A DNA stretch of 64,000 bases from a virus (lineage: Duplodnaviria; Caudoviricetes): the IMG/VR virus record IMGVR_UViG_3300011113_000415, one strand, 5' to 3'. A program made the position numbers and the translations under genes. Under the pieces are notes generated by a model, which did no database searches, was not told the origin of the DNA, and saw only the letters and a list, made by a program, of their open reading frames with translations. This document shows, in pieces, positions 9,977 through 20,588 of the stretch (position 1 is the first letter of the stretch; each line of letters starts with the position of its first letter).

Positions 9977-10050
9977 GCCCCTTTAGTTTAAAAGTAAAAC
10001 AGACGCTTGATAAGCGTCAGTCGGAGGAGCGTTACCTCCCGGGGGTACCA
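9977..10050 (+). tRNA. tRNA-Ile(GAT), non-canonical D and T loops
   Basis: GACGC-TTGATAA-GCGTC; T loop AGCGTTA; CCA. Confidence 0.85.
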
Positions 10051-10348: not shown

Positions 10349-10918
10349 CTATGCGATTATTTGTTGACTTAGTTCTTTTAATTTAGCCACTGTAGGAGCA
10401 TCATCTTTGAAACCGATTTGTAAGGCAGTTCTTGATCCGTCAACCATGTTTTCAACACTGTGCAAACATTGTGTGCTGAAAAATACCCACTGCCCAACTT
10501 GAAAGCGATGACGACATATTTCAATTAAATTACTGTAGTCTGTGCCAAAGGTAAAAGGTACCCTAATGTAAGGTTGGTTTTTTTCACGCCAGTGTACAGT
10601 ATCAACTTCGGAACCGCCGGTTTCGAATAACCACATTAACGCCCAATAACGCGACTGATCGGTATGCGGAGGTGATATTCCTTTGCCCATAACACTGATG
10701 CCAATATCTTGATTATGATCACTGCCTACATTTTCATCTACCCAGTCTTGGATTCTTTTACTAACTTTATATTTTGTATAATCCATTGGTAAAATTTCTT
10801 TACCATCTCTTATGGTTATCCTAGGTGTACACTTTATGTCATAAGTGTCATTTCCTAAAAAAAGTTGTTCAGGAAATGGGGGCAAGTCAGGGAAAAAAAC
10901 TAATTCATCTTTGGTCAT
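10349..10918 (-). CDS. 2OG-Fe(II) oxygenase/cupin-like protein
   Basis: PHTD...HSV...RTALQ (HxD..H..R) pattern; GAGG RBS. Confidence 0.6.
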   Translation of the reverse strand: MTKDELVFFPDLPPFPEQLFLGNDTYDIKCTPRITIRDGKEILPMDYTKYKVSKRIQDWVDENVGSDHNQDIGISVMGKGISPPHTDQSRYWALMWLFETGGSEVDTVHWREKNQPYIRVPFTFGTDYSNLIEICRHRFQVGQWVFFSTQCLHSVENMVDGSRTALQIGFKDDAPTVAKLKELSQQIIA

Positions 10919-10987
10919 AAAAGCCTCTCTCAACTATTTATCCTGCAAAATCTGCATCTTCAAAATCGCGTATATTAAATATAAATT

Positions 10988-12223
10988 ATGCTTACAAAAA
11001 ACATCTATTTACTGTATCCAGCAGGTTATTCAGGCAACTTCATCAAATGGGCCATTAGTGCCAGTGACATAGATTTGCAAAAAATCACAGTCAATGACCC
11101 TATAAACAAAACGTTTAGTCACAAATACGGTGGGCCCGGGACAACACATTTAGAGGACAGAGTACCCACACATCAAGACATTTATAGGCATCTTATTTGG
11201 ATGGCATACAATCGTCCGGTAGCCAATCAAATCTATATACTTTTTACAACTTCACAATCAATGAGTCAAACCTTAGACGGAATTTTGAGCACAGATCCTG
11301 ATCCATTGATTATTATCATACATGACAACAGAGATAGAGACACAAGAACCTACGGAAATTTAAATGCTATAACCAAATGGCCTACCTACATGCACACTAG
11401 ACAAACTCTTTGGAACTTTGAAAAACAATCAAGATTAGAATACAGTTTGATGACAAATCATGACTTTTTCAATTGTGAAAATGATATGAATTTGAGAAAT
11501 ATGATTGCTCTGAAGAGTTTTGCATGGCTAGTAGAACTTGATCCGTTTGACGATCAGTCAAAAAATCAATACCTTGAGGATTTGTTAAAAAATAAACTTT
11601 GGTTTGATACGAGACAGCAATATCAACCACATGAATTGCTGCCGCACATGTATGCGGTACATGAAGCACTGCCAAATAATGCAGTTCATCAACTGAGTTG
11701 TAAAGATGTGGTCAGTGAAAATTTTCCAAATATTTTATATGATATTTTAAAGACCAGTGGTTGTTGTAGTGAATTTGATATATCACCAGTCAAACAGATA
11801 CATGAAAAGTATATCTCTGCTCAGAAAAATTTAGATTGGTTCTCTTCAATTGCGCATTGGAGAAAAACTGGTTATCTTGATCAATACCTAGTAAGTCATG
11901 CAGTCATTCAAGGCTTTGTAATTCAAGAAATTTTAGAAAAGTTGAAATTCATTGATTACATCAAGTTTGATCCACATTACAAATGGTACGATTTTTATCA
12001 GGCTGTTCGTGACCAGGGTTGGCCGGATTGTGATCAAGAAAAAGATTTTTTGACATTGCCTTTACATATTAGAGAAGAATTAATTACAAAATTTAATTAC
12101 AAATTTGAACCTATACAGGTACAAAATAATCAAATTTTAAAAGCATTAGAAAATTGGGAATCAATGTCTATACAAGAAATCAATGATTTGTATCTACAAA
12201 GTGATGTTTGGTCTATTTATTAA
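10988..12223 (+). CDS. hypothetical protein, possible P-loop/sulfotransferase-like N-terminus, with C-terminal FY..RD..WPDC module
   Basis: long AT-rich ORF; YPAGYSGNF; WYDFYQAVRDQGWPDC. Confidence 0.75.
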   Translation: MLTKNIYLLYPAGYSGNFIKWAISASDIDLQKITVNDPINKTFSHKYGGPGTTHLEDRVPTHQDIYRHLIWMAYNRPVANQIYILFTTSQSMSQTLDGILSTDPDPLIIIIHDNRDRDTRTYGNLNAITKWPTYMHTRQTLWNFEKQSRLEYSLMTNHDFFNCENDMNLRNMIALKSFAWLVELDPFDDQSKNQYLEDLLKNKLWFDTRQQYQPHELLPHMYAVHEALPNNAVHQLSCKDVVSENFPNILYDILKTSGCCSEFDISPVKQIHEKYISAQKNLDWFSSIAHWRKTGYLDQYLVSHAVIQGFVIQEILEKLKFIDYIKFDPHYKWYDFYQAVRDQGWPDCDQEKDFLTLPLHIREELITKFNYKFEPIQVQNNQILKALENWESMSIQEINDLYLQSDVWSIY

Positions 12224-15200: not shown

Positions 15201-15902
15201 TTACTTGACTGTGGCCAATCCAAGGTTCCGAAGAATACAAATGTACATCCAACCTATGTCAAACTCCCACCAGTTTCTACTGAGGCGAGCACTGGCTGGA
15301 TCCAAGTGGTGGTTGTTGTGTAGTTCTTCGCCACCAATCACGATACCCCAGGGACTGATATTTCTACTGAGATCTCGGGTTTCTCCATTTCTATAGCCCC
15401 ACCAGTGTGCTAGACCGTTGACGACACCAGCGGCCCAGAACGGTATCCATATTATCTGTATGAGCCAAATTATGGCGCCAACCCAACCAAAGAGCCAGAG
15501 GTTGAACACAAGGCAAATGCCAAGCCCAAGTCCGGAGTGAGGAGTGTATATGTTACGCTCCAACCAGTCACTAGGAGTGCCACGACCATATGTATCAACC
15601 ATGTCCGTATCTTTTGCGGCTTCATTGTATAACCATGCTCCTCGAAACAAAACTTGCCAGATTCCATACACATGTGGACTGTGCGGATCACCTGCCCGAT
15701 CACTGTATCTATGATGCTTGCGGTGTATGGCCACCCATTGCTTTGTGACCATGCCTGTTGTGAGCCACAGCCAGGTTCGCATGAAGTGTTCTATTAGGGG
15801 ATGAAATGTCACAGATCGGTGTGCTTGTGATCTATGCAAATACAGTGTGACGCAGGCTATGGTGATGTGTGTGGCGATTAAAGTGTATAGGAGTTCTGTC
15901 AT
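15201..15902 (-). CDS. membrane fatty acid (delta-9 acyl-CoA/acyl-lipid) desaturase
   Basis: three His boxes HRSQAH, HRKHH, HNNHH plus TM segments. Confidence 0.93.
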   Translation of the reverse strand: MTELLYTLIATHITIACVTLYLHRSQAHRSVTFHPLIEHFMRTWLWLTTGMVTKQWVAIHRKHHRYSDRAGDPHSPHVYGIWQVLFRGAWLYNEAAKDTDMVDTYGRGTPSDWLERNIYTPHSGLGLGICLVFNLWLFGWVGAIIWLIQIIWIPFWAAGVVNGLAHWWGYRNGETRDLSRNISPWGIVIGGEELHNNHHLDPASARLSRNWWEFDIGWMYICILRNLGLATVK

Positions 15903-15991: not shown

Positions 15992-16067
15992 GCCCCTTAA
16001 ACTAATCTAGTGAAAGTGCGGGACTGAAAATCCCGAAAGCCAGGAGCGTAACCTGGAGGGGGCACCA
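15992..16067 (+). tRNA. tRNA-Phe(GAA), non-canonical T loop
   Basis: CGGGA-CTGAAAA-TCCCG; T loop AGCGTAA; CCA. Confidence 0.88.
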
Positions 16068-16472: not shown

Positions 16473-16655
16473 ATGACCCGGACCTTGATTTGGGTGTTAT
16501 CGTTTAGTGTGCTGGGCCCTGTACCCGAAAGCGGAGAACTGGCCAAGTACAAAACTCAAGCAGAATGCGAACAAGCAAAAATTCAAAAACGCGAAGAGTA
16601 TCAGGCTCAGAAAAAACGCATTGTGGCCAGTTGTCATCCCAGCACCAAAGGTTGA
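16473..16655 (+). CDS. small protein with hydrophobic N-terminus
   Basis: AGGA RBS. Confidence 0.6.
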   Translation: MTRTLIWVLSFSVLGPVPESGELAKYKTQAECEQAKIQKREEYQAQKKRIVASCHPSTKG

Positions 16656-16680
16656 CAAACAATCAAAATAAATATATAAT
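16652..16680 (+). promoter_or_regulatory. consensus sigma70 promoter of the permuted tmRNA
   Basis: TTGACA-N17-TATAAT. Confidence 0.88.
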
Positions 16681-16686
16681 ACTGAG

Positions 16687-16751
16687 AACAGCGTAAACTG
16701 CGATTCAGAAAAGGATTCAAGACGGCGGGGCAGTGCCGCCCAGGTCCACCA
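16687..16751 (+). ncRNA. ssrA: two-piece tmRNA, acceptor piece
   Basis: GAC-GGCGG-GGCAGTG-CCGCC T arm then CAGGTCC-A-CCA, complementary to 17134-40 with G3:U70. Confidence 0.85.
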
Positions 16752-16763
16752 TAAGGAAGTTTG

Positions 16764-17132
16764 ATGCGTATTACTGAGATTGCTAATACAAAACTATCAT
16801 TTAAAACAACAAAAGGCAGTAATGCTATTGGTGTTGAAATGAACGTTGACGGGCAATACGCAGGGATGTTTCAATACGATGCAGGTAACGGAAGAAGTTT
16901 AGTAGAGTTAGATCCAGACTTTCAAGGCAAAGGTTTGGGTAAAATTCTAATACTAAAAGAAATCTATACTGCTATCATGTCTGGATTAGACTATGTAGAA
17001 GATGAGTCACGCACCCAAGCATTTGATAATGCTATGAATAGTTTGGCAGACGCTGGTTACATAGTCAATGATGACGAGTATTGGTATGTCACTAGTGAAG
17101 GTGAGCAATATCTCAAACAAGTTTCTTTATGA
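16764..17132 (+). CDS. GNAT-like acetyltransferase inside the tmRNA intervening segment
   Basis: ELDPDFQGKGLGKIL acetyl-CoA motif A; AAGGA RBS right after the CCA; stop 1 nt before tmRNA G1. Confidence 0.75.
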   Translation: MRITEIANTKLSFKTTKGSNAIGVEMNVDGQYAGMFQYDAGNGRSLVELDPDFQGKGLGKILILKEIYTAIMSGLDYVEDESRTQAFDNAMNSLADAGYIVNDDEYWYVTSEGEQYLKQVSL

Positions 17133-17133
17133 T

Positions 17134-17314
17134 GGGCCTGACACAGGATCGATTGGGTCAAGAGTAGGGATAGTGGCGCTCGGTAAGGTAGAAGCCGTTA
17201 GGGTTGGGAGTTCCCAGCCGAAGAAGCAAAAAAAGTAAAGGCAAACGACTCACAGTTCCAATTGGCCGCGTAAAGTAGCCTAGGGTAGGAAATACCTCGT
17301 AACAGAAACCACCA
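17134..17314 (+). ncRNA. ssrA: two-piece tmRNA, coding piece (tag ANDSQFQLAA)
   Basis: GGGCCTGA..GGATCGA 5' end; tag frame 17241-17273 GCAAACGAC...GCCGCGTAA; TTGGGTC pairs with GATTCAA 16714-20. Confidence 0.9.
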
Positions 17315-17315
17315 A

Positions 17316-17339
17316 GGCCCGCTTCGGTGGGCTTTTTTC
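17316..17339 (+). terminator. intrinsic terminator after the tmRNA
   Basis: GGCCCGC-TTCG-GTGGGCT followed by a T run. Confidence 0.85.
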
Positions 17340-17355
17340 TTGGCTAAATATCGGC

Positions 17356-17940
17356 ATGATAGTTTATATTCACGGTGCCAGTGCCACTGCCGAAAGTTTC
17401 ACACACATAAGAGAATACGTTAGAGAGCATACAGAACTGCCAGACACTGCCTTGGAATACAAGAGCGATGATGGTTTTGATCATAACCTTGGCCGCATGA
17501 TGGGACAACTGGATGACGCTGAACGGCTGTTCTTTGTGAGTCACAGCCTGGGTGGTATCTATGCCTTGTGCTTGGCCAACCACTATCGTGATCGTACCTT
17601 GGGCGGGGTGAGTCTCTCAACACCCTATGGTGGAAGCAAACAAGCAGACTTTGCCAGATACTTTTTGCCATTCAATCAACTGATGAAAGACATTGGTACC
17701 ATGAGTGAGCCCATGGCCGAATCAAGACGACTACCAGCACCCCCACGTTGGACCAATGTTGTGACCACAGTGGGCGACAGTCCTTGGATAACCGAGCCCA
17801 ATGATGGCGTGGTCACACTGGCCAGCATGCGAGCAAGAAAAGACTTTGAACTGGTAGAACTGCCACTGAACCACTATGAAGTGGTACTCAGCAATCAAGT
17901 GGTGCGCTTGATCCTAGACAGAATCAATGGTGCCTTATGA
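17356..17940 (+). CDS. alpha/beta hydrolase
   Basis: IHGA, SHSLGG nucleophile elbow, NDGVV, NHYE. Confidence 0.88.
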   Translation: MIVYIHGASATAESFTHIREYVREHTELPDTALEYKSDDGFDHNLGRMMGQLDDAERLFFVSHSLGGIYALCLANHYRDRTLGGVSLSTPYGGSKQADFARYFLPFNQLMKDIGTMSEPMAESRRLPAPPRWTNVVTTVGDSPWITEPNDGVVTLASMRARKDFELVELPLNHYEVVLSNQVVRLILDRINGAL

Positions 17941-18659
17941 AACCTGTACTGATCCTACAACATCAAACACCCGAACGTCCGGCTTATCTTGTGACATGGT
18001 TGACGCAACATAACATTCCTTATGAAACACGCTGTGCTGGCAGTGGTCAAGAGTTTCCCCAAAGCATAGAACCTTACTCGGCCCTGGCTGTGATGGGTGG
18101 TGGCATGAGTGCCAATGATCCGTTGTTGAGCAATCGTCAAGCAGAAATACTAATACTACAGGCCGTGAGGCAAGACCGTCCAGTGATAGGACATTGCTTG
18201 GGCGGACAACTGATGACTCGTGCCCTGGGCGGGCATGTGAGCCTGTCACCACAGCCCGAAATAGGCTGGCAACACATAGACTACGAAGATAATTCCTTGG
18301 TCACTCATTGGTTTGGTGCTGACCCCACACCCCGGGTAATACAGTGGCACTATGAAGCATTCAGCGTACCCCCGGGTGCCACACGATTGGCAGGATCACG
18401 ATCTTGCCCCAACCAAGCCTGGTGCCTGGGCCCGCATTTGGCCATGCAATTTCACATCGAAATTGATGCAGTCAAAGCCCAGGAATGGGCTGGAGACGAA
18501 GATCCCAAATGGGCCGCGGCCCGTGCCCAGTATGTCTCAGTGCAGGACAGCAAGGCCATCCTGGAGGGAATTGAGCCTTATCTTGCGCACCATCAGGCCA
18601 CTGCTGATCATGTTTACCAAACTTGGCTAAAAACCACACACTGGGCCAGAAACTTGTAA
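17937..18659 (+). CDS. type 1 glutamine amidotransferase-like protein
   Basis: GHCLGGQ, QWHYE, MQFHIE. Confidence 0.9.
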   Translation: MKPVLILQHQTPERPAYLVTWLTQHNIPYETRCAGSGQEFPQSIEPYSALAVMGGGMSANDPLLSNRQAEILILQAVRQDRPVIGHCLGGQLMTRALGGHVSLSPQPEIGWQHIDYEDNSLVTHWFGADPTPRVIQWHYEAFSVPPGATRLAGSRSCPNQAWCLGPHLAMQFHIEIDAVKAQEWAGDEDPKWAAARAQYVSVQDSKAILEGIEPYLAHHQATADHVYQTWLKTTHWARNL

Positions 18660-18914: not shown

Positions 18915-20588
18915 ATGAAAAATAGATTTGAAGAACTTGAAACACTAGTATCAAAATTTACCAAACAACTACCCCCTGGCACACACTACGCCAACAGACT
19001 TGAGCAAGAACTAGAACTCATAGTTCAACTCAACTTTGCCAAACACTTTTTGCGTGTGAGAGAAATACTAGATCTCACCCAAGACATACCACACATCACT
19101 CGAGGTTCAGCAGGTTCCAGCCTGGTGTGCTGGATGATGGGCATAAGTGATGTGGATCCTGTGGCCGAACACATACCACTTTCACGGTTCATGAATCCGC
19201 GTCGTGACGATTTGCCGGACATTGATCTTGACTTCCCACACTGGCAACAGGAAGAAGTCATGAATCGCATATATCGACGCTGGCCCGGACAGAGTGCTAG
19301 AGTATCAAACTATGTGACCTACAAAGAAAAATCAGCACGTCGTGAAGCAGCCAAACGCCTGGGTGCCGAAGGCCGGTTGGATCGCAACTTTCGCTTTGAA
19401 GATGTTGTGCCCGACTATGTGGCAGATGCTGAACGACTCACAAACAAGTTGCTGGGCAAGAAACGTTGTATATCAAAGCACTGTGGTGGCATATTGATTT
19501 TTGATCGACCAGTGCCGCCCAGTTTGATCAATGGTGAAAATCAAATCTTGTTGGACAAGTATGAGATTGAAGATCTAGAACACTTCAAGATCGACATTTT
19601 GGCCAATCGTGGTTTAAGTCAACTGTGGGAAATAGACCAGCGTGACCTGTTGGACTACCCTGAGCAGGACGAAGCCACTGCTCAACTGCTTGGTAGTGGC
19701 AATGTGCTGGGTGTGACACAGGCTGAGTCACCGGCCATGCGACGCCTGTTTCGAGCCATAAGGCCACAAAGTCGTGCTGACTGTGTGTTGGGCACTGCAC
19801 TCATACGCCCGGTGGCCACACAAGGGCGCAGGCGAGCCAGTTTCTTTCAAGACTGGTCAAAAGATCGTTTTGAAGATACCATTGTGTTTGAAGACGATGC
19901 CATAAGACTCATTGCCGACATCTTGAACTGCGATGAGTACACAGCCGACATGTGGCGTCGTGCGTTTGCCAAAAAGAACGAAGAAAAAATGTTTGAGTTC
20001 ATGACCTTGGTGGGTGATCATCCCCGGCGTGATGATGTGTTTGCCGCACTACGAGAACTCAGTCACTTTGGCTTGTGTCGTGCTCATGCCATCAACCTGG
20101 GTAGGTTGATCTGGGCCTTGGCCTATCAAAAAGCACACAACCCTATCAAGTTTTGGCAGGCCGCACTCAAGCACTGTCAAGGTAGTTATGCTAGATGGGT
20201 GTATTGGCAAGAGGCCAAACTGGCCGGTGCGGTGCCTGCCTTGATCGAAGGCAACGAAGTGGCAGACCTGGCTGCCACCGGGCGTTGGCAGTCACCACGA
20301 TTTATTCCGGTATGTCAGGAAATACGCAGGCCCGGAGAAGTGGAATTTTGTGGCTTGGTGGCCAACTATCGTGTGTTCAAGAGTTCGCCCAAAGAGTACA
20401 TTACCTTTGTGACCCTGGGCACAGGCAATGGTCGATATTTGGATGTGGTTGTGCCACGTGCCATGAGTTTTCAAGAACATCCAATCTTGTGGGGAATGGG
20501 CAAATTGGACTACAAAAACAACACAGAATATGTTATACTTAAACGTCATAAAAGACTACGATTACAAGAAGTTGCTCACATACAATGA
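18915..20588 (+). CDS. dnaE: compact DnaE-type (C-family) DNA polymerase without PHP domain
   Basis: RGSAGSSL, PDIDLDF, SKHCGG, KIDILANRGL; C-terminal OB-fold-like region. Confidence 0.88.
   Translation: MKNRFEELETLVSKFTKQLPPGTHYANRLEQELELIVQLNFAKHFLRVREILDLTQDIPHITRGSAGSSLVCWMMGISDVDPVAEHIPLSRFMNPRRDDLPDIDLDFPHWQQEEVMNRIYRRWPGQSARVSNYVTYKEKSARREAAKRLGAEGRLDRNFRFEDVVPDYVADAERLTNKLLGKKRCISKHCGGILIFDRPVPPSLINGENQILLDKYEIEDLEHFKIDILANRGLSQLWEIDQRDLLDYPEQDEATAQLLGSGNVLGVTQAESPAMRRLFRAIRPQSRADCVLGTALIRPVATQGRRRASFFQDWSKDRFEDTIVFEDDAIRLIADILNCDEYTADMWRRAFAKKNEEKMFEFMTLVGDHPRRDDVFAALRELSHFGLCRAHAINLGRLIWALAYQKAHNPIKFWQAALKHCQGSYARWVYWQEAKLAGAVPALIEGNEVADLAATGRWQSPRFIPVCQEIRRPGEVEFCGLVANYRVFKSSPKEYITFVTLGTGNGRYLDVVVPRAMSFQEHPILWGMGKLDYKNNTEYVILKRHKRLRLQEVAHIQ

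What the first reader, a model, noticed from the sequence alone, without database searches (positions are those of the whole stretch)
16652..17339. Circularly permuted two-piece tmRNA with a protein-coding GNAT gene in its intervening segment
Seen: promoter 16652-80; acceptor piece ending T arm-CAGGTCC-A-CCA at 16751; a 382-nt intervening segment; then the coding piece starting GGGCCTG at 17134, which forms a perfect 7-bp acceptor stem with G3:U70; tag ANDSQFQLAA; terminator. The intervening segment is filled exactly by an RBS and a 122-aa ORF with a GNAT motif A (DFQGKGLG), whose stop ends 1 nt before G1. Established: permuted two-piece tmRNAs occur in alphaproteobacteria, some cyanobacteria and some betaproteobacteria, normally with a short discarded spacer. 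Inference: tmRNA maturation (RNase P at G1, trimming to CCA) would release a stand-alone mini-mRNA, tying acetyltransferase expression to tmRNA processing. Some GNATs act on aminoacyl-tRNAs or ribosomal proteins.
Basis: partly seen in the sequence, partly recalled or inferred. Interest (0 to 1): 0.85.

Follow-up and report, generated by a model that had tools for sequence, protein, structure and literature searches.

The report
Protein gene inside phage tmRNA spacer
A freshwater giant phage carries a split (two-piece) tmRNA gene whose "throw-away" spacer holds a real, conserved 122-codon gene for a small acetyltransferase-like protein. Related phages put many unrelated small genes in the same stem-closed spacer, so one transcript seems to serve both as a messenger and as the precursor of a stable RNA.

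Summary
Rfam's permuted-tmRNA model scores 80 bits over 16690-17273. A perfect sigma-70 promoter, a G3:U70 acceptor stem, the tag ANDSQFQLAA and a terminator are all present. The 382-nt spacer is 12 nt with a ribosome-binding site, a 122-codon ORF, and 1 nt.

The ORF is a real gene (dN/dS 0.17), and 15 related metagenomic loci have identical geometry. Its product is a minimal GNAT-like domain. This is supported by motifs, by fold and by transitive homology, but it falls below Pfam thresholds.

- **Closing helix.** The spacer ends form a conserved, covarying helix. One strand is the ribosome-binding site and the other is the last codons. The stop codon lies in a leader that empty spacers also have.
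- **Gene slot.** In the wider phage tmRNA family, spacers of 130 nt or more are almost always ORF-filled, by at least 21 unrelated peptide families.
- **No sign of a tmRNA-specific role.** The GNAT-like domain mostly occurs as a module of large phage proteins that have no tmRNA nearby.

So this is a gene slot, not a tmRNA-specific acetyltransferase. How the RNA is processed and translated is inferred, not shown. This scan has already noted the same layout on many other phage genomes. I found no paper that describes it.

The parts
16652..16680 (+). Sigma-70 consensus promoter (TTGACA-N17-TATAAT). The inferred transcription start is near 16687.
   Evidence: 12 of 12 matches. It is one of five perfect consensus promoters in the window.
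16688..16751 (+). tmRNA acceptor piece. It comprises the 5' strands of the P2 helices, the T arm (stem 16724-16728 / 16736-16740, loop GGCAGUG 16729-16735), the acceptor 3' strand CAGGUCC (16741-16747), A73 and the encoded CCA (16749-16751).
   Evidence: RF04321, model positions 1-63.
16752..17133 (+). Intervening segment, 382 nt. It is removed in a mature two-piece tmRNA.
   Evidence: The length and junctions are identical in 16 loci.
16753..16763 (+). 5' strand of the closing helix (AAGGAAGUUUG). It contains the Shine-Dalgarno sequence AAGGAAG (16753-16759).
   Evidence: It pairs with 17118-17128. The register is conserved in 88 of 99 unique spacers.
16764..17132 (+). 122-codon ORF (P0001) encoding a minimal GNAT-like domain. 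The stop codon TGA is at 17130-17132.
   Evidence: dN/dS 0.17. AlphaFold model with pLDDT 85.5. GNAT fold hits.
17118..17128 (+). 3' strand of the closing helix (CAAGUUUCUUU). It overlaps the last codons of the ORF (QVSL).
   Evidence: It explains the recurrent VSL, FL and LL C-termini of unrelated slot ORFs.
17129..17133 (+). Conserved 5' leader AUGAU before G1. It holds the ORF's UGA stop codon, can pair with ACCA-U, and has U at position -1.
   Evidence: ATGAT or ATAAT in nearly all spacers, empty ones included. (fold).
17134..17340 (+). tmRNA coding piece. It comprises the acceptor 5' strand GGGCCUG (17134-17140), the D-loop analogue, the 3' strands of P2, the pseudoknot region, the tag frame and the 3' block.
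   Evidence: model positions 87-213.
17241..17273 (+). Tag reading frame: resume codon GCA, tag ANDSQFQLAA, stop codon TAA.
   Evidence: Read. Relatives keep intact tags ending LAA, VAA or MAA.
17314..17341 (+). Intrinsic terminator (9-bp stem, loop TTCG, T run).

Best explanation
This is a functional-looking, phage-borne two-piece tmRNA gene, related to the betaproteobacterial type. Its stem-closed intervening segment is used as a slot for a small protein gene. Here the slot holds a free-standing 122-aa minimal GNAT-like domain.

One transcript of about 650 nt runs from a consensus early promoter to a terminator. It contains, in order, the acceptor piece, the gene and the coding piece.

Inferred mechanism:
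1. The ribosome-binding site is transcribed about 370 nt before its pairing partner, so ribosomes can load during transcription and translate the gene from the unprocessed transcript.
2. A ribosome terminating at the UGA, 1 nt before G1, covers the acceptor 5' strand and the RNase P site. Translation and folding or processing of the tRNA-like domain are therefore mutually exclusive on any one molecule.
3. When no ribosome is present, the 11-bp closing helix forms. Together with leader:ACCA pairing and the acceptor stem it makes a nearly continuous duplex that hides the ribosome-binding site.
4. The duplex brings the two tmRNA halves together for cleavage (RNase P at G1; an RNase III- or RNase E-type cut plus 3' trimming to CCA). 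This yields the two-piece tmRNA, which must use host SmpB.

The GNAT-like protein is most likely an accessory phage protein whose job is unrelated to tmRNA. It is one interchangeable cassette among many.
For: Shown:
- RF04321 scores 80.2 bits.
- In 45 unique tRNA-like cores the acceptor stem, G3:U70 and the T stem are paired in 100% of cases, apart from one U:U at acceptor pair 6. P2a is paired in 94.8% of cells, against 67% (maximum 75%) when the 3' strands are dealt among loci.
- Relatives keep intact, varied tags.
- All 16 loci of the window's clade share the geometry CCA + 12 nt + 122 codons + 1 nt.
- The ORF has dN/dS 0.17, with variable sites 26/17/61 by codon position.
- The closing helix is present in a fixed register in 88 of 99 unique spacers, against a mean of 19 (maximum 30) in controls, with 37 distinct strand sequences. 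It appears in both the MFE and the centroid fold of the window's precursor. Its energy is about -7 kcal/mol, against about -6 for SD:anti-SD pairing.
- Spacers of 130 nt or more are ORF-filled in 20 of 22 cases (shuffles: mean 0.17). Spacers under 80 nt are filled in 0 of 24.
- There are 21 unrelated peptide families among 42 filled spacers. An SD-like motif is present in 39 of 42 filled spacers and 12 of 57 unfilled ones.
- Loci with different ORFs share invariant junction sequences. L095 also has the same downstream neighbour gene as the window.
- All 14 sampled family loci hit RF04321 (79-142 bits), and 5 also pass the beta_tmRNA cut-off.
- No SmpB was found in 3 related phage genomes estimated at 92-100% complete.
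- GNAT link: the AlphaFold model has pLDDT 85.5. The top rows in PDB and Swiss-Prot are nearly all GNAT-superfamily. VIA Z is 7-7.9, and the hits include the minimal GNAT YjdJ. The distant family member P0159 reaches Pfam's GNAT cut-off over the module.
Against: - There are no RNA end data. Which RNA species is translated, which nucleases cut, and whether the two pieces form and are charged with alanine are all inferred.
- The window's T loop (GGCAGUG) is non-canonical. However, it recurs in at least 8 unique cores of the family.
- The window's tmRNA does not reach the beta_tmRNA cut-off.
- P0001 itself is below every Pfam GNAT threshold, has no significant PDB sequence match, and lacks the N-terminal arm of classical GNATs. 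Its fold Z-scores are in the range the tool calls middling.
- Metatranscriptome contigs give only weak hints.
Confidence: 0.7

Rival explanations
1. tmRNA maturation (RNase P at G1, trimming to CCA) liberates the spacer as a stand-alone mini-mRNA. That excised RNA is the translated form, so protein output is coupled positively to tmRNA processing.
For: - The gene has no promoter of its own.
- The junctions are exact and invariant.
- An excised spacer would have its two ends paired in the closing helix, which could protect it from exonucleases.
Against: - After an RNase P cut, the only way to reach CCA by 3' trimming is through the whole mRNA, unless an endonuclease cuts within the 12 nt between CCA and the ATG, where the ribosome-binding site lies.
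- In the excised RNA the ribosome-binding site stays paired.
- The stop codon would lie 1 nt from the 3' end, so slight nibbling would make a non-stop message.
- In RNA-library contigs the ORF part has far lower depth than the tag part. This is only a weak hint.
Confidence: 0.2
2. Functional coupling. The GNAT-like protein acts on the trans-translation system or the translation machinery, for example on Ala-tmRNA, aminoacyl-tRNA, SmpB or ribosomal proteins, and that is why it sits inside the tmRNA gene.
For: - The physical nesting is strictly conserved in the window's clade.
- Fold hits include the ribosomal-protein acetyltransferase RimI among many other GNATs.
- From general knowledge, some GNAT toxins acetylate aminoacyl-tRNA.
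Against: - The slot carries at least 21 unrelated peptide families in sister tmRNAs.
- Three relatives estimated 92-100% complete have the tmRNA but no GNAT module.
- Homologues at 63-66% identity lie in phage contigs with no tmRNA hit, between large proteins, one with a LysM / glycoside hydrolase 19 domain.
- About four in five of the 150 listed family representatives (clusters at 50% identity) are modules of proteins of 200-2,400 aa.
- No specific similarity to tRNA-acetylating toxins was seen.
Confidence: 0.07
3. The ORF is a decaying or untranslated passenger, like the S23p ORF in the Coxiella 23S rRNA intervening sequence, or the tmRNA itself is a non-functional relic.
For: - The Coxiella precedent: the ORF there is apparently not synthesised in vivo and is decaying (PMC4990558).
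- The ribosome-binding site here is sequestered in a helix.
- The window's T loop is non-canonical.
Against: - dN/dS is 0.17 and changes fall mainly at third codon positions.
- There are 58 protein clusters at 60-93% identity.
- The SD and ATG are invariant.
- The tRNA-like domain covaries and the tags stay intact.
- The Rfam score is 33 bits above the cut-off.
Confidence: 0.03

Closest known systems
Circularly permuted (two-piece) tmRNA genes: Rfam RF04321, with the betaproteobacterial type RF01850
   Same: The gene order is acceptor piece, then intervening segment, then coding piece. The G3:U70 acceptor stem, encoded CCA, T arm, P2 helices and a tag of ANDxxFxLAA type are all present. Relatives of this family pass the beta_tmRNA cut-off.
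   Different: The element is carried by a phage. The spacer is 382 nt and protein-coding. The window's copy has a non-canonical T loop and does not itself reach the beta_tmRNA cut-off.
Two-piece tmRNA genes of aquatic phages, such as OM43 phage Melnitz and the pelagimyophages (PMC9004378)
   Same: They are phage-encoded permuted ssrA genes behind an early promoter, and the phage has no smpB. That survey found two-piece forms mostly in aquatic phages.
   Different: That paper describes a glutamine riboswitch in the 3' part. It does not describe protein genes in the intervening segment or a closing helix that hides a ribosome-binding site.
Unusual contents of tmRNA genes listed in the 2025 tmRNA database paper (PMC11915505): a tRNA-Ala gene and a repetitive element in intervening sequences, and group I introns with homing endonuclease genes in the T loop
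   Same: Foreign genetic material is tolerated inside a tmRNA gene and removed from the mature RNA.
   Different: In the passages I searched, no protein-coding gene is reported in an intervening sequence. Here the insert is an ordinary small gene, not an intron, a homing endonuclease or a tRNA.
Intervening sequences of bacterial 23S rRNA that carry the S23p ORF (Coxiella burnetii; PMC4990558)
   Same: It is a stem-closed segment of about 400 nt inside a stable-RNA precursor, excised so that the mature RNA is left in two pieces, and it contains an ORF.
   Different: The Coxiella ORF is apparently not made in vivo and is decaying. Here the ORF is under purifying selection with a consensus SD, and the slot holds many different genes. 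RNase III involvement here is only a guess.
Minimal GNAT-fold proteins, such as E. coli YjdJ (PDB 5i0c; Pfam Acetyltransf_CG)
   Same: It has the core beta sheet plus the motif A helix without the long N-terminal arm. 84 of YjdJ's 89 residues align to the model at Z 7.0. There is a weak Acetyltransf_CG hit.
   Different: There is no significant sequence similarity. The usual catalytic Tyr position in motif B appears to be an invariant Leu (my reading of the alignment). The substrate is unknown.

Membership tests
Permuted two-piece tmRNA (Rfam RF04321) | The covariance model scores at or above its gathering score, with the full model matched | tested here: met
   80.2 bits against 47, model positions 1-213, E 9.7e-14
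Permuted two-piece tmRNA (Rfam RF04321) | Alanine identity elements: 7-bp acceptor stem with G3:U70, discriminator A73 and a 3' CCA | tested here: met
   GGGCCUG (17134-17140) pairs with CAGGUCC (16741-16747), followed by A and CCA ending at 16751. G3:U70 is present in 45 of 45 unique cores.
Permuted two-piece tmRNA (Rfam RF04321) | T arm with a canonical T loop (UUCGAnU type) | tested here: not met
   The 5-bp T stem is intact and covaries, but the window's loop is GGCAGUG. Relatives have UUCGACU, UGCGAAU or GGCAGUG. This is a variant within the family, not a reason for exclusion.
Permuted two-piece tmRNA (Rfam RF04321) | Tag reading frame with a GCA resume codon and a hydrophobic C-terminus such as LAA | tested here: met
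   17241-17273 reads ANDSQFQLAA then stop. Relatives have ANDEQFALAA, ANDSQFRVAA, ANDEKFLMAA and others.
Permuted two-piece tmRNA (Rfam RF04321) | Helices of the tRNA-like domain are supported by compensatory changes | tested here: met
   P2a is paired in 94.8% of cells, against 67% (maximum 75%) when strands are dealt among loci. There are T stem GC/CG swaps and an acceptor pair 6 UA/AU swap.
Permuted two-piece tmRNA (Rfam RF04321) | Maturation into two base-paired RNAs, charging with alanine, SmpB binding and tagging activity | not testable with these tools
   There are no RNA end data. RNA-library contigs give only weak hints. No SmpB was found in three relatives estimated 92-100% complete, so host SmpB would be needed.
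Betaproteobacterial two-piece tmRNA (Rfam RF01850) | Score at or above the gathering score of 84 bits | tested here: inconclusive
   It is not listed for the window, but 5 of 14 sampled relatives pass at 85-155 bits.
GNAT acetyltransferase superfamily | Motif A: the pyrophosphate-binding Q/R-x-x-G-x-G/A after strand beta-4 | tested here: met
   Q54-G-K-G57-L-G59. G57 and G59 are invariant, and Q54 is Q or R across 18 homologues.
GNAT acetyltransferase superfamily | A Pfam GNAT model scores at or above its curated cut-off | tested here: not met
   For P0001 the best hit is Acetyltransf_7 at 16.4 bits against 27. The distant family member P0159 (profile E 9e-12) reaches Acetyltransf_1 at 26.4 bits against 20.7 over the module.
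GNAT acetyltransferase superfamily | GNAT core fold | tested here: met
   The AlphaFold model has pLDDT 85.5. The Foldseek top rows are nearly all GNAT-superfamily, with E 3e-3 to 2e-2 and probability about 0.99. In VIA, 49 of the 50 rows shown are GNAT-fold proteins, Z 6.7-7.9 over 82-115 residues. The scores are moderate; the tool warns that Z under 8 can reflect a common arrangement.
GNAT acetyltransferase superfamily | N-terminal beta1-alpha1-alpha2 arm that forms part of the acceptor-substrate site | tested here: not met
   The model has four strands before motif A and no N-terminal helices. Hits align to the C-terminal two thirds of full-size GNATs. It is therefore a minimal, truncated form.
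GNAT acetyltransferase superfamily | Acetyl-CoA binding and acyl transfer | not testable with these tools
   Needs biochemistry.
tRNA-acetylating GNAT toxins (TacT, AtaT, ItaT type) | A full-size GNAT toxin encoded next to a cognate antitoxin gene | tested here: not met
   The ORF stands alone between the two tmRNA halves. It is only 122 aa, and these toxins did not stand out among the fold hits.
ORF-bearing intervening sequences of 23S rRNA (S23p type) | A stem-closed segment within a stable-RNA precursor that carries an ORF | tested here: met
   The closing helix is shown. The ORF is shown.
ORF-bearing intervening sequences of 23S rRNA (S23p type) | The ORF belongs to the S23p family, the host RNA is 23S rRNA, and excision is by RNase III | tested here: not met
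   The host RNA is a tmRNA and the ORF is GNAT-like. The nuclease is not testable. This is an analogy only.

The most novel reading that the evidence does not exclude
The closing helix and the nested gene form a switch that reads ribosome availability. While free ribosomes are plentiful they load on the nascent ribosome-binding site, keep the helix open and occlude G1, so the transcript is used as a messenger. When ribosomes are scarce or trapped on broken messages, the helix forms, the precursor is processed, and more tmRNA is made. tmRNA supply would then be tuned by the very thing it repairs, and the slot genes would be expressed only while translation is healthy.
Probability: 0.15. Interest if true: 0.85.

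Novelty: new variant of a known kind. Interest (0 to 1): 0.6.

Why it matters
Two-piece tmRNA spacers are treated as discarded sequence. Here the spacer is a conserved, stem-closed cassette site that carries real genes. The ribosome-binding site and the last codons are built into the processing helix, and the stop codon sits in the RNase P leader.

That makes one transcript both a messenger and a stable-RNA precursor, which sets up a direct and testable competition between translation and RNA maturation.

It also affects annotation. ARAGORN misses this tmRNA, and gene callers report the ORF as an orphan hypothetical protein. The recurrent VSL-type C-termini of unrelated small phage proteins are explained by an RNA constraint.

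Finally, it gives a compact natural scaffold for co-expressing a small protein with a stable RNA.

Tried and rejected
- **ARAGORN** found 24 tRNAs but no tmRNA.
- **Named phages.** blastn and tblastn of the locus and of P0001 against 50,697 GenBank phage records found nothing, so no named phage relative is available.
- **PHROGs.** No family matched P0001 or P0055.
- **PDB sequence search with the profile.** Nothing scored below E 0.02. The top rows (eS10 N-terminal domain, residues 89-119) are not credible.
- **Whole genome.** None is held for the window, so SmpB and paralogue searches on the window's own genome were impossible. I used related IMG/VR records instead.
- **In-window paralogue of the GNAT-like domain.** None was found.
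- **Bacterial genomes.** Only six have a downstream G1-like motif, and none of those has a closing helix, so I judge them chance matches. No cellular counterpart or host was identified this way.
- **RNA evidence.** Only small-share metatranscriptome contigs were available.
  - They come from relatives at about 90% identity.
  - Summed depth is about 650-2,100 on the tag and 3' block, against 10-20 on the ORF.
  - One 438-nt contig carries the ORF with both junctions.
  - Two contigs skip 356-371 nt, with unknown content between.
  - Contig depth cannot rank parts of a gene and DNA carry-over is possible, so none of this counts as evidence of processing or expression.
- **Papers.** The two founding papers on two-piece tmRNA (PMC16621, PMC516066) are not held, so I could not check what they say about spacer stems.
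- **Own promoter for the ORF.** Rejected. There is no promoter-like site between 16681 and 16764 on the + strand, and only 12 nt separate CCA from the ATG.
Full report
**1.

- A perfect TTGACA-N17-TATAAT promoter lies at 16652-16680, and an intrinsic terminator at 17314-17335.
- Rfam's merged model for permuted tmRNA (RF04321) matches 16690-17273 at 80.2 bits (cut-off 47, E 9.7e-14). All 213 positions are matched, and a single large insertion sits in the loop between the 3' and 5' strands of the acceptor stem.
- ARAGORN finds the window's 24 tRNAs but not this tmRNA.
- By direct reading, the T arm is 16724-16740, the acceptor 3' strand CAGGUCC is 16741-16747, and A73-CCA ends at 16751.
- G1 of GGGCCUG is at 17134, which gives G3:U70.
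- The tag frame GCA...TAA at 17241-17273 encodes ANDSQFQLAA.
- The intervening segment, 16752-17133, is 382 nt. It is 12 nt containing AAGGAAG, then ATG 16764 to TGA 17132 (122 codons, P0001), then one U.

**2. Both the tmRNA and the ORF are under selection**

- The protein has 58 homologue clusters in metagenomes.
- Fifteen further loci, from IMG/VR and JGI contigs of up to 124 kb, carry the ORF at 81-90% identity. Every one has the same layout: CCA, 12 nt, 122 codons, 1 nt, G1.
- Rfam finds the permuted tmRNA around the ORF in every locus tested.
- The ORF has dN/dS 0.17 over all pairs, and its variable sites fall 26/17/61 by codon position.
- The tmRNA halves vary more than the ORF, but they keep their structure. 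In 45 unique tRNA-like cores the acceptor stem and T stem are always paired, apart from one U:U at acceptor pair 6, with UA/AU and GC/CG swaps. Helix P2a is paired in 94.8% of cells, against 67% (maximum 75%) when the 3' strands are dealt among loci.
- Tags stay intact while varying: ANDEQFALAA, ANDSQFRVAA, ANDEKFLMAA, ANDSVYSLAA and others.
- The window's T loop (GGCAGUG) is not canonical, but the same variant recurs in at least 8 unique cores.

**3.

- The 11 nt after CCA-U (AAGGAAGUUUG, 16753-16763) pair with CAAGUUUCUUU (17118-17128). That is the Shine-Dalgarno sequence and its spacer pairing with the last codons of the ORF (QVSL).
- The leader AUGAU (17129-17133), which contains the UGA stop codon, can pair with ACCA-U.
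- Both pairings appear in the MFE and the centroid fold of the precursor (z -4.05).
- The helix alone is worth about -7 kcal/mol, similar to SD:anti-SD pairing at about -6.

**4. The wider family shows a gene slot**

- All 14 loci sampled are permuted tmRNAs (79-142 bits), and five also pass the betaproteobacterial model.
- Their spacers range from 27 to 373 nt.
- The closing helix is present in a fixed register (position +2 after CCA with position -6 before G1) in 88 of 99 unique spacers. Controls give a mean of 19 and a maximum of 30. There are 37 different strand sequences, so it is a covarying, selected structure that exists with or without an ORF.
- The leader ATGAT or ATAAT is likewise near-universal.
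- Spacers of 130 nt or more are filled to at least 80% by an ORF starting within 30 nt of CCA in 20 of 22 cases (shuffles: mean 0.17, maximum 2). The figure is 10 of 41 for spacers of 80-130 nt, and 0 of 24 for shorter ones.
- The 42 filled unique spacers hold 21 unrelated peptide families, from 22-aa membrane peptides to 120-aa proteins. One has a CxxCxxCC domain above Pfam's cut-off.
- An SD-like motif sits in the 5' helix strand in 39 of 42 filled spacers and in 12 of 57 unfilled ones.
- A 24-aa peptide family also varies mainly at third codon positions.
- The stop codon ends 1 nt before G1 in 23 spacers and 12 nt before in 8.
- Loci with different ORFs share invariant junction sequences. 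L095 has the window's downstream hydrolase gene but a different 56-aa slot gene.
- The window's 60-aa ORF just upstream of the tmRNA promoter (16473-16655) has a homologue that sits inside the slot in L082.
- So "filled exactly" is a property of the slot, not of this gene. ORFs use the purine-rich helix strand as their ribosome-binding site and run into stop codons that are part of the helix or the leader. This also explains why unrelated slot proteins end in VSL, SL, FL or LL.

**5. The protein**

- Pfam gives only sub-threshold GNAT hits around motif A. PHROGs and PDB sequence searches give nothing significant.
- The alignment shows the motif A signature Q/R-x-x-G-x-G with invariant glycines, and a motif-B-like A..L...GY segment.
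- AlphaFold gives a confident model with pLDDT 85.5.
- The top Foldseek rows in PDB and Swiss-Prot are nearly all GNAT-superfamily proteins (E 3e-3 to 2e-2, probability about 0.99).
- VIA-align gives Z 6.7-7.9 for 50 rows, 49 of them GNAT-fold proteins, including the 89-residue minimal GNAT YjdJ.
- A profile search finds 156 clusters at 50% identity. About four in five of the 150 listed are modules inside proteins of 200-2,400 aa.
- Those larger proteins also carry DUF6934, DUF6321, dCMP deaminase, amidoligase or Pol-beta nucleotidyltransferase domains. In some distant members the module itself reaches Pfam's GNAT cut-off.
- The 188-208-aa homologues lie in phage contigs with no tmRNA hit, between a DUF5661 protein and a large protein that in one locus carries LysM and glycoside hydrolase 19 domains.
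- Three related giant-phage genomes estimated 92-100% complete have the tmRNA but no such module.
- I conclude that it is a free-standing, minimal GNAT-like domain of unknown substrate, and that nothing ties it specifically to tmRNA.

**6. How it most likely works**

*Shown:* one promoter, one terminator, and no room for a separate promoter. The ribosome-binding site and the ORF end are paired in the precursor. The stop codon abuts G1. Both the RNA and the protein are under selection. Three related phage genomes estimated 92-100% complete have no phage SmpB.

*Inferred:*
1. The ribosome-binding site emerges about 370 nt before its partner, so ribosomes can load during transcription.
2. A ribosome at the stop codon covers G1-G7 and the RNase P site. 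This rests on the established size of the ribosome footprint. Translation and folding of the tRNA-like domain therefore exclude each other on one molecule.
3. Without ribosomes, a nearly continuous duplex forms from the acceptor stem, the leader:ACCA pairing and the closing helix. It hides the ribosome-binding site and presents the junctions for cleavage.
4. Trimming to CCA from an RNase P cut would consume the mRNA. Either an endonuclease cuts in or near the helix, or maturation of the acceptor piece is the decay of the mRNA.

**7. Literature and earlier notes**

- Phage two-piece tmRNAs are known (PMC9004378).
- The 2025 tmRNA database paper notes a tRNA gene and a repeat element in spacers, and homing endonuclease genes in T-loop introns. 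In the passages I searched, it does not mention a protein gene in a spacer (PMC11915505).
- My other literature searches found no description.
- The closest analogue is the ORF-bearing, RNase III-excised intervening sequence of Coxiella 23S rRNA, whose ORF is apparently silent and decaying (PMC4990558).
- This scan has already noted ORF-filled phage tmRNA spacers about 90 times, in at least 85 genomes. My results agree with those notes and were obtained independently here.

**8. Verdict**

This is a new variant of a known kind. The general phenomenon is interesting and apparently unpublished. This locus is its largest example among those I sampled, and it carries the only GNAT-like cargo.

Noticed in passing
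window 6798, 13066, 14718, 16652, 25645: There are five perfect TTGACA-N17-TATAAT promoters on the + strand in 64 kb. About 0.02 would be expected by chance (my estimate). At least two of them lie within or head the tRNA array and one heads the tmRNA, which suggests strong host-polymerase early units.
   Followed up: partly
window 9977-10047 and 15992-16064: Rfam calls two further tRNAs (43.9 and 43.6 bits) that ARAGORN did not list, giving 26 in all between 2.8 and 16.1 kb.
   Followed up: no
window 16729-16735 (T loop) and 17141-17152 (D-loop analogue): The T loop is non-canonical (GGCAGUG). The family has three T-loop classes (UUCGACU, UGCGAAU, GGCAGUG) that change together with the D-loop analogue (GGUUUCGAC, AGUUUCGAC, GGAUCGAU). 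This may be covariation of the tertiary elbow contact.
   Followed up: partly
window 16473-16655; L082 about 374-553: The 60-aa ORF just upstream of the tmRNA promoter has a 54%-identical homologue that sits inside the tmRNA spacer of L082. Genes therefore move between the slot and its flank.
   Followed up: partly
L002-L005 (for example L002 3001-3627): The 188-208-aa homologues of the GNAT-like protein carry a Lys- and Cys-rich C-terminal extension. They lie between a 1,247-aa DUF5661 protein and a large protein that in L004 (991 aa) carries LysM and glycoside hydrolase 19 domains. Rfam finds no tmRNA in these loci.
   Followed up: partly
L023 about 10671-11035 (- strand): This relative's tmRNA has an unusually long tag frame of 27 codons ending EMAA, against 10 codons in the window.
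   Followed up: no
window 16754/17126 and 16762/17119 (read laying joints): Two metatranscriptome contigs match the end of the acceptor piece and the start of the coding piece but skip 356-371 nt, with unknown content between. They probably come from relatives with another or a shorter spacer.
   Followed up: no
window 15201-15902 (-), 17356-17940, 17937-18659, 18915-20588: Mosaic accessory genes surround the tmRNA: a fatty-acid-desaturase-like membrane protein, an alpha/beta hydrolase, a class I glutamine amidotransferase and a short DnaE-like polymerase. Neighbours differ between loci that share the tmRNA-ORF unit, so this is a hypervariable region.
   Followed up: partly
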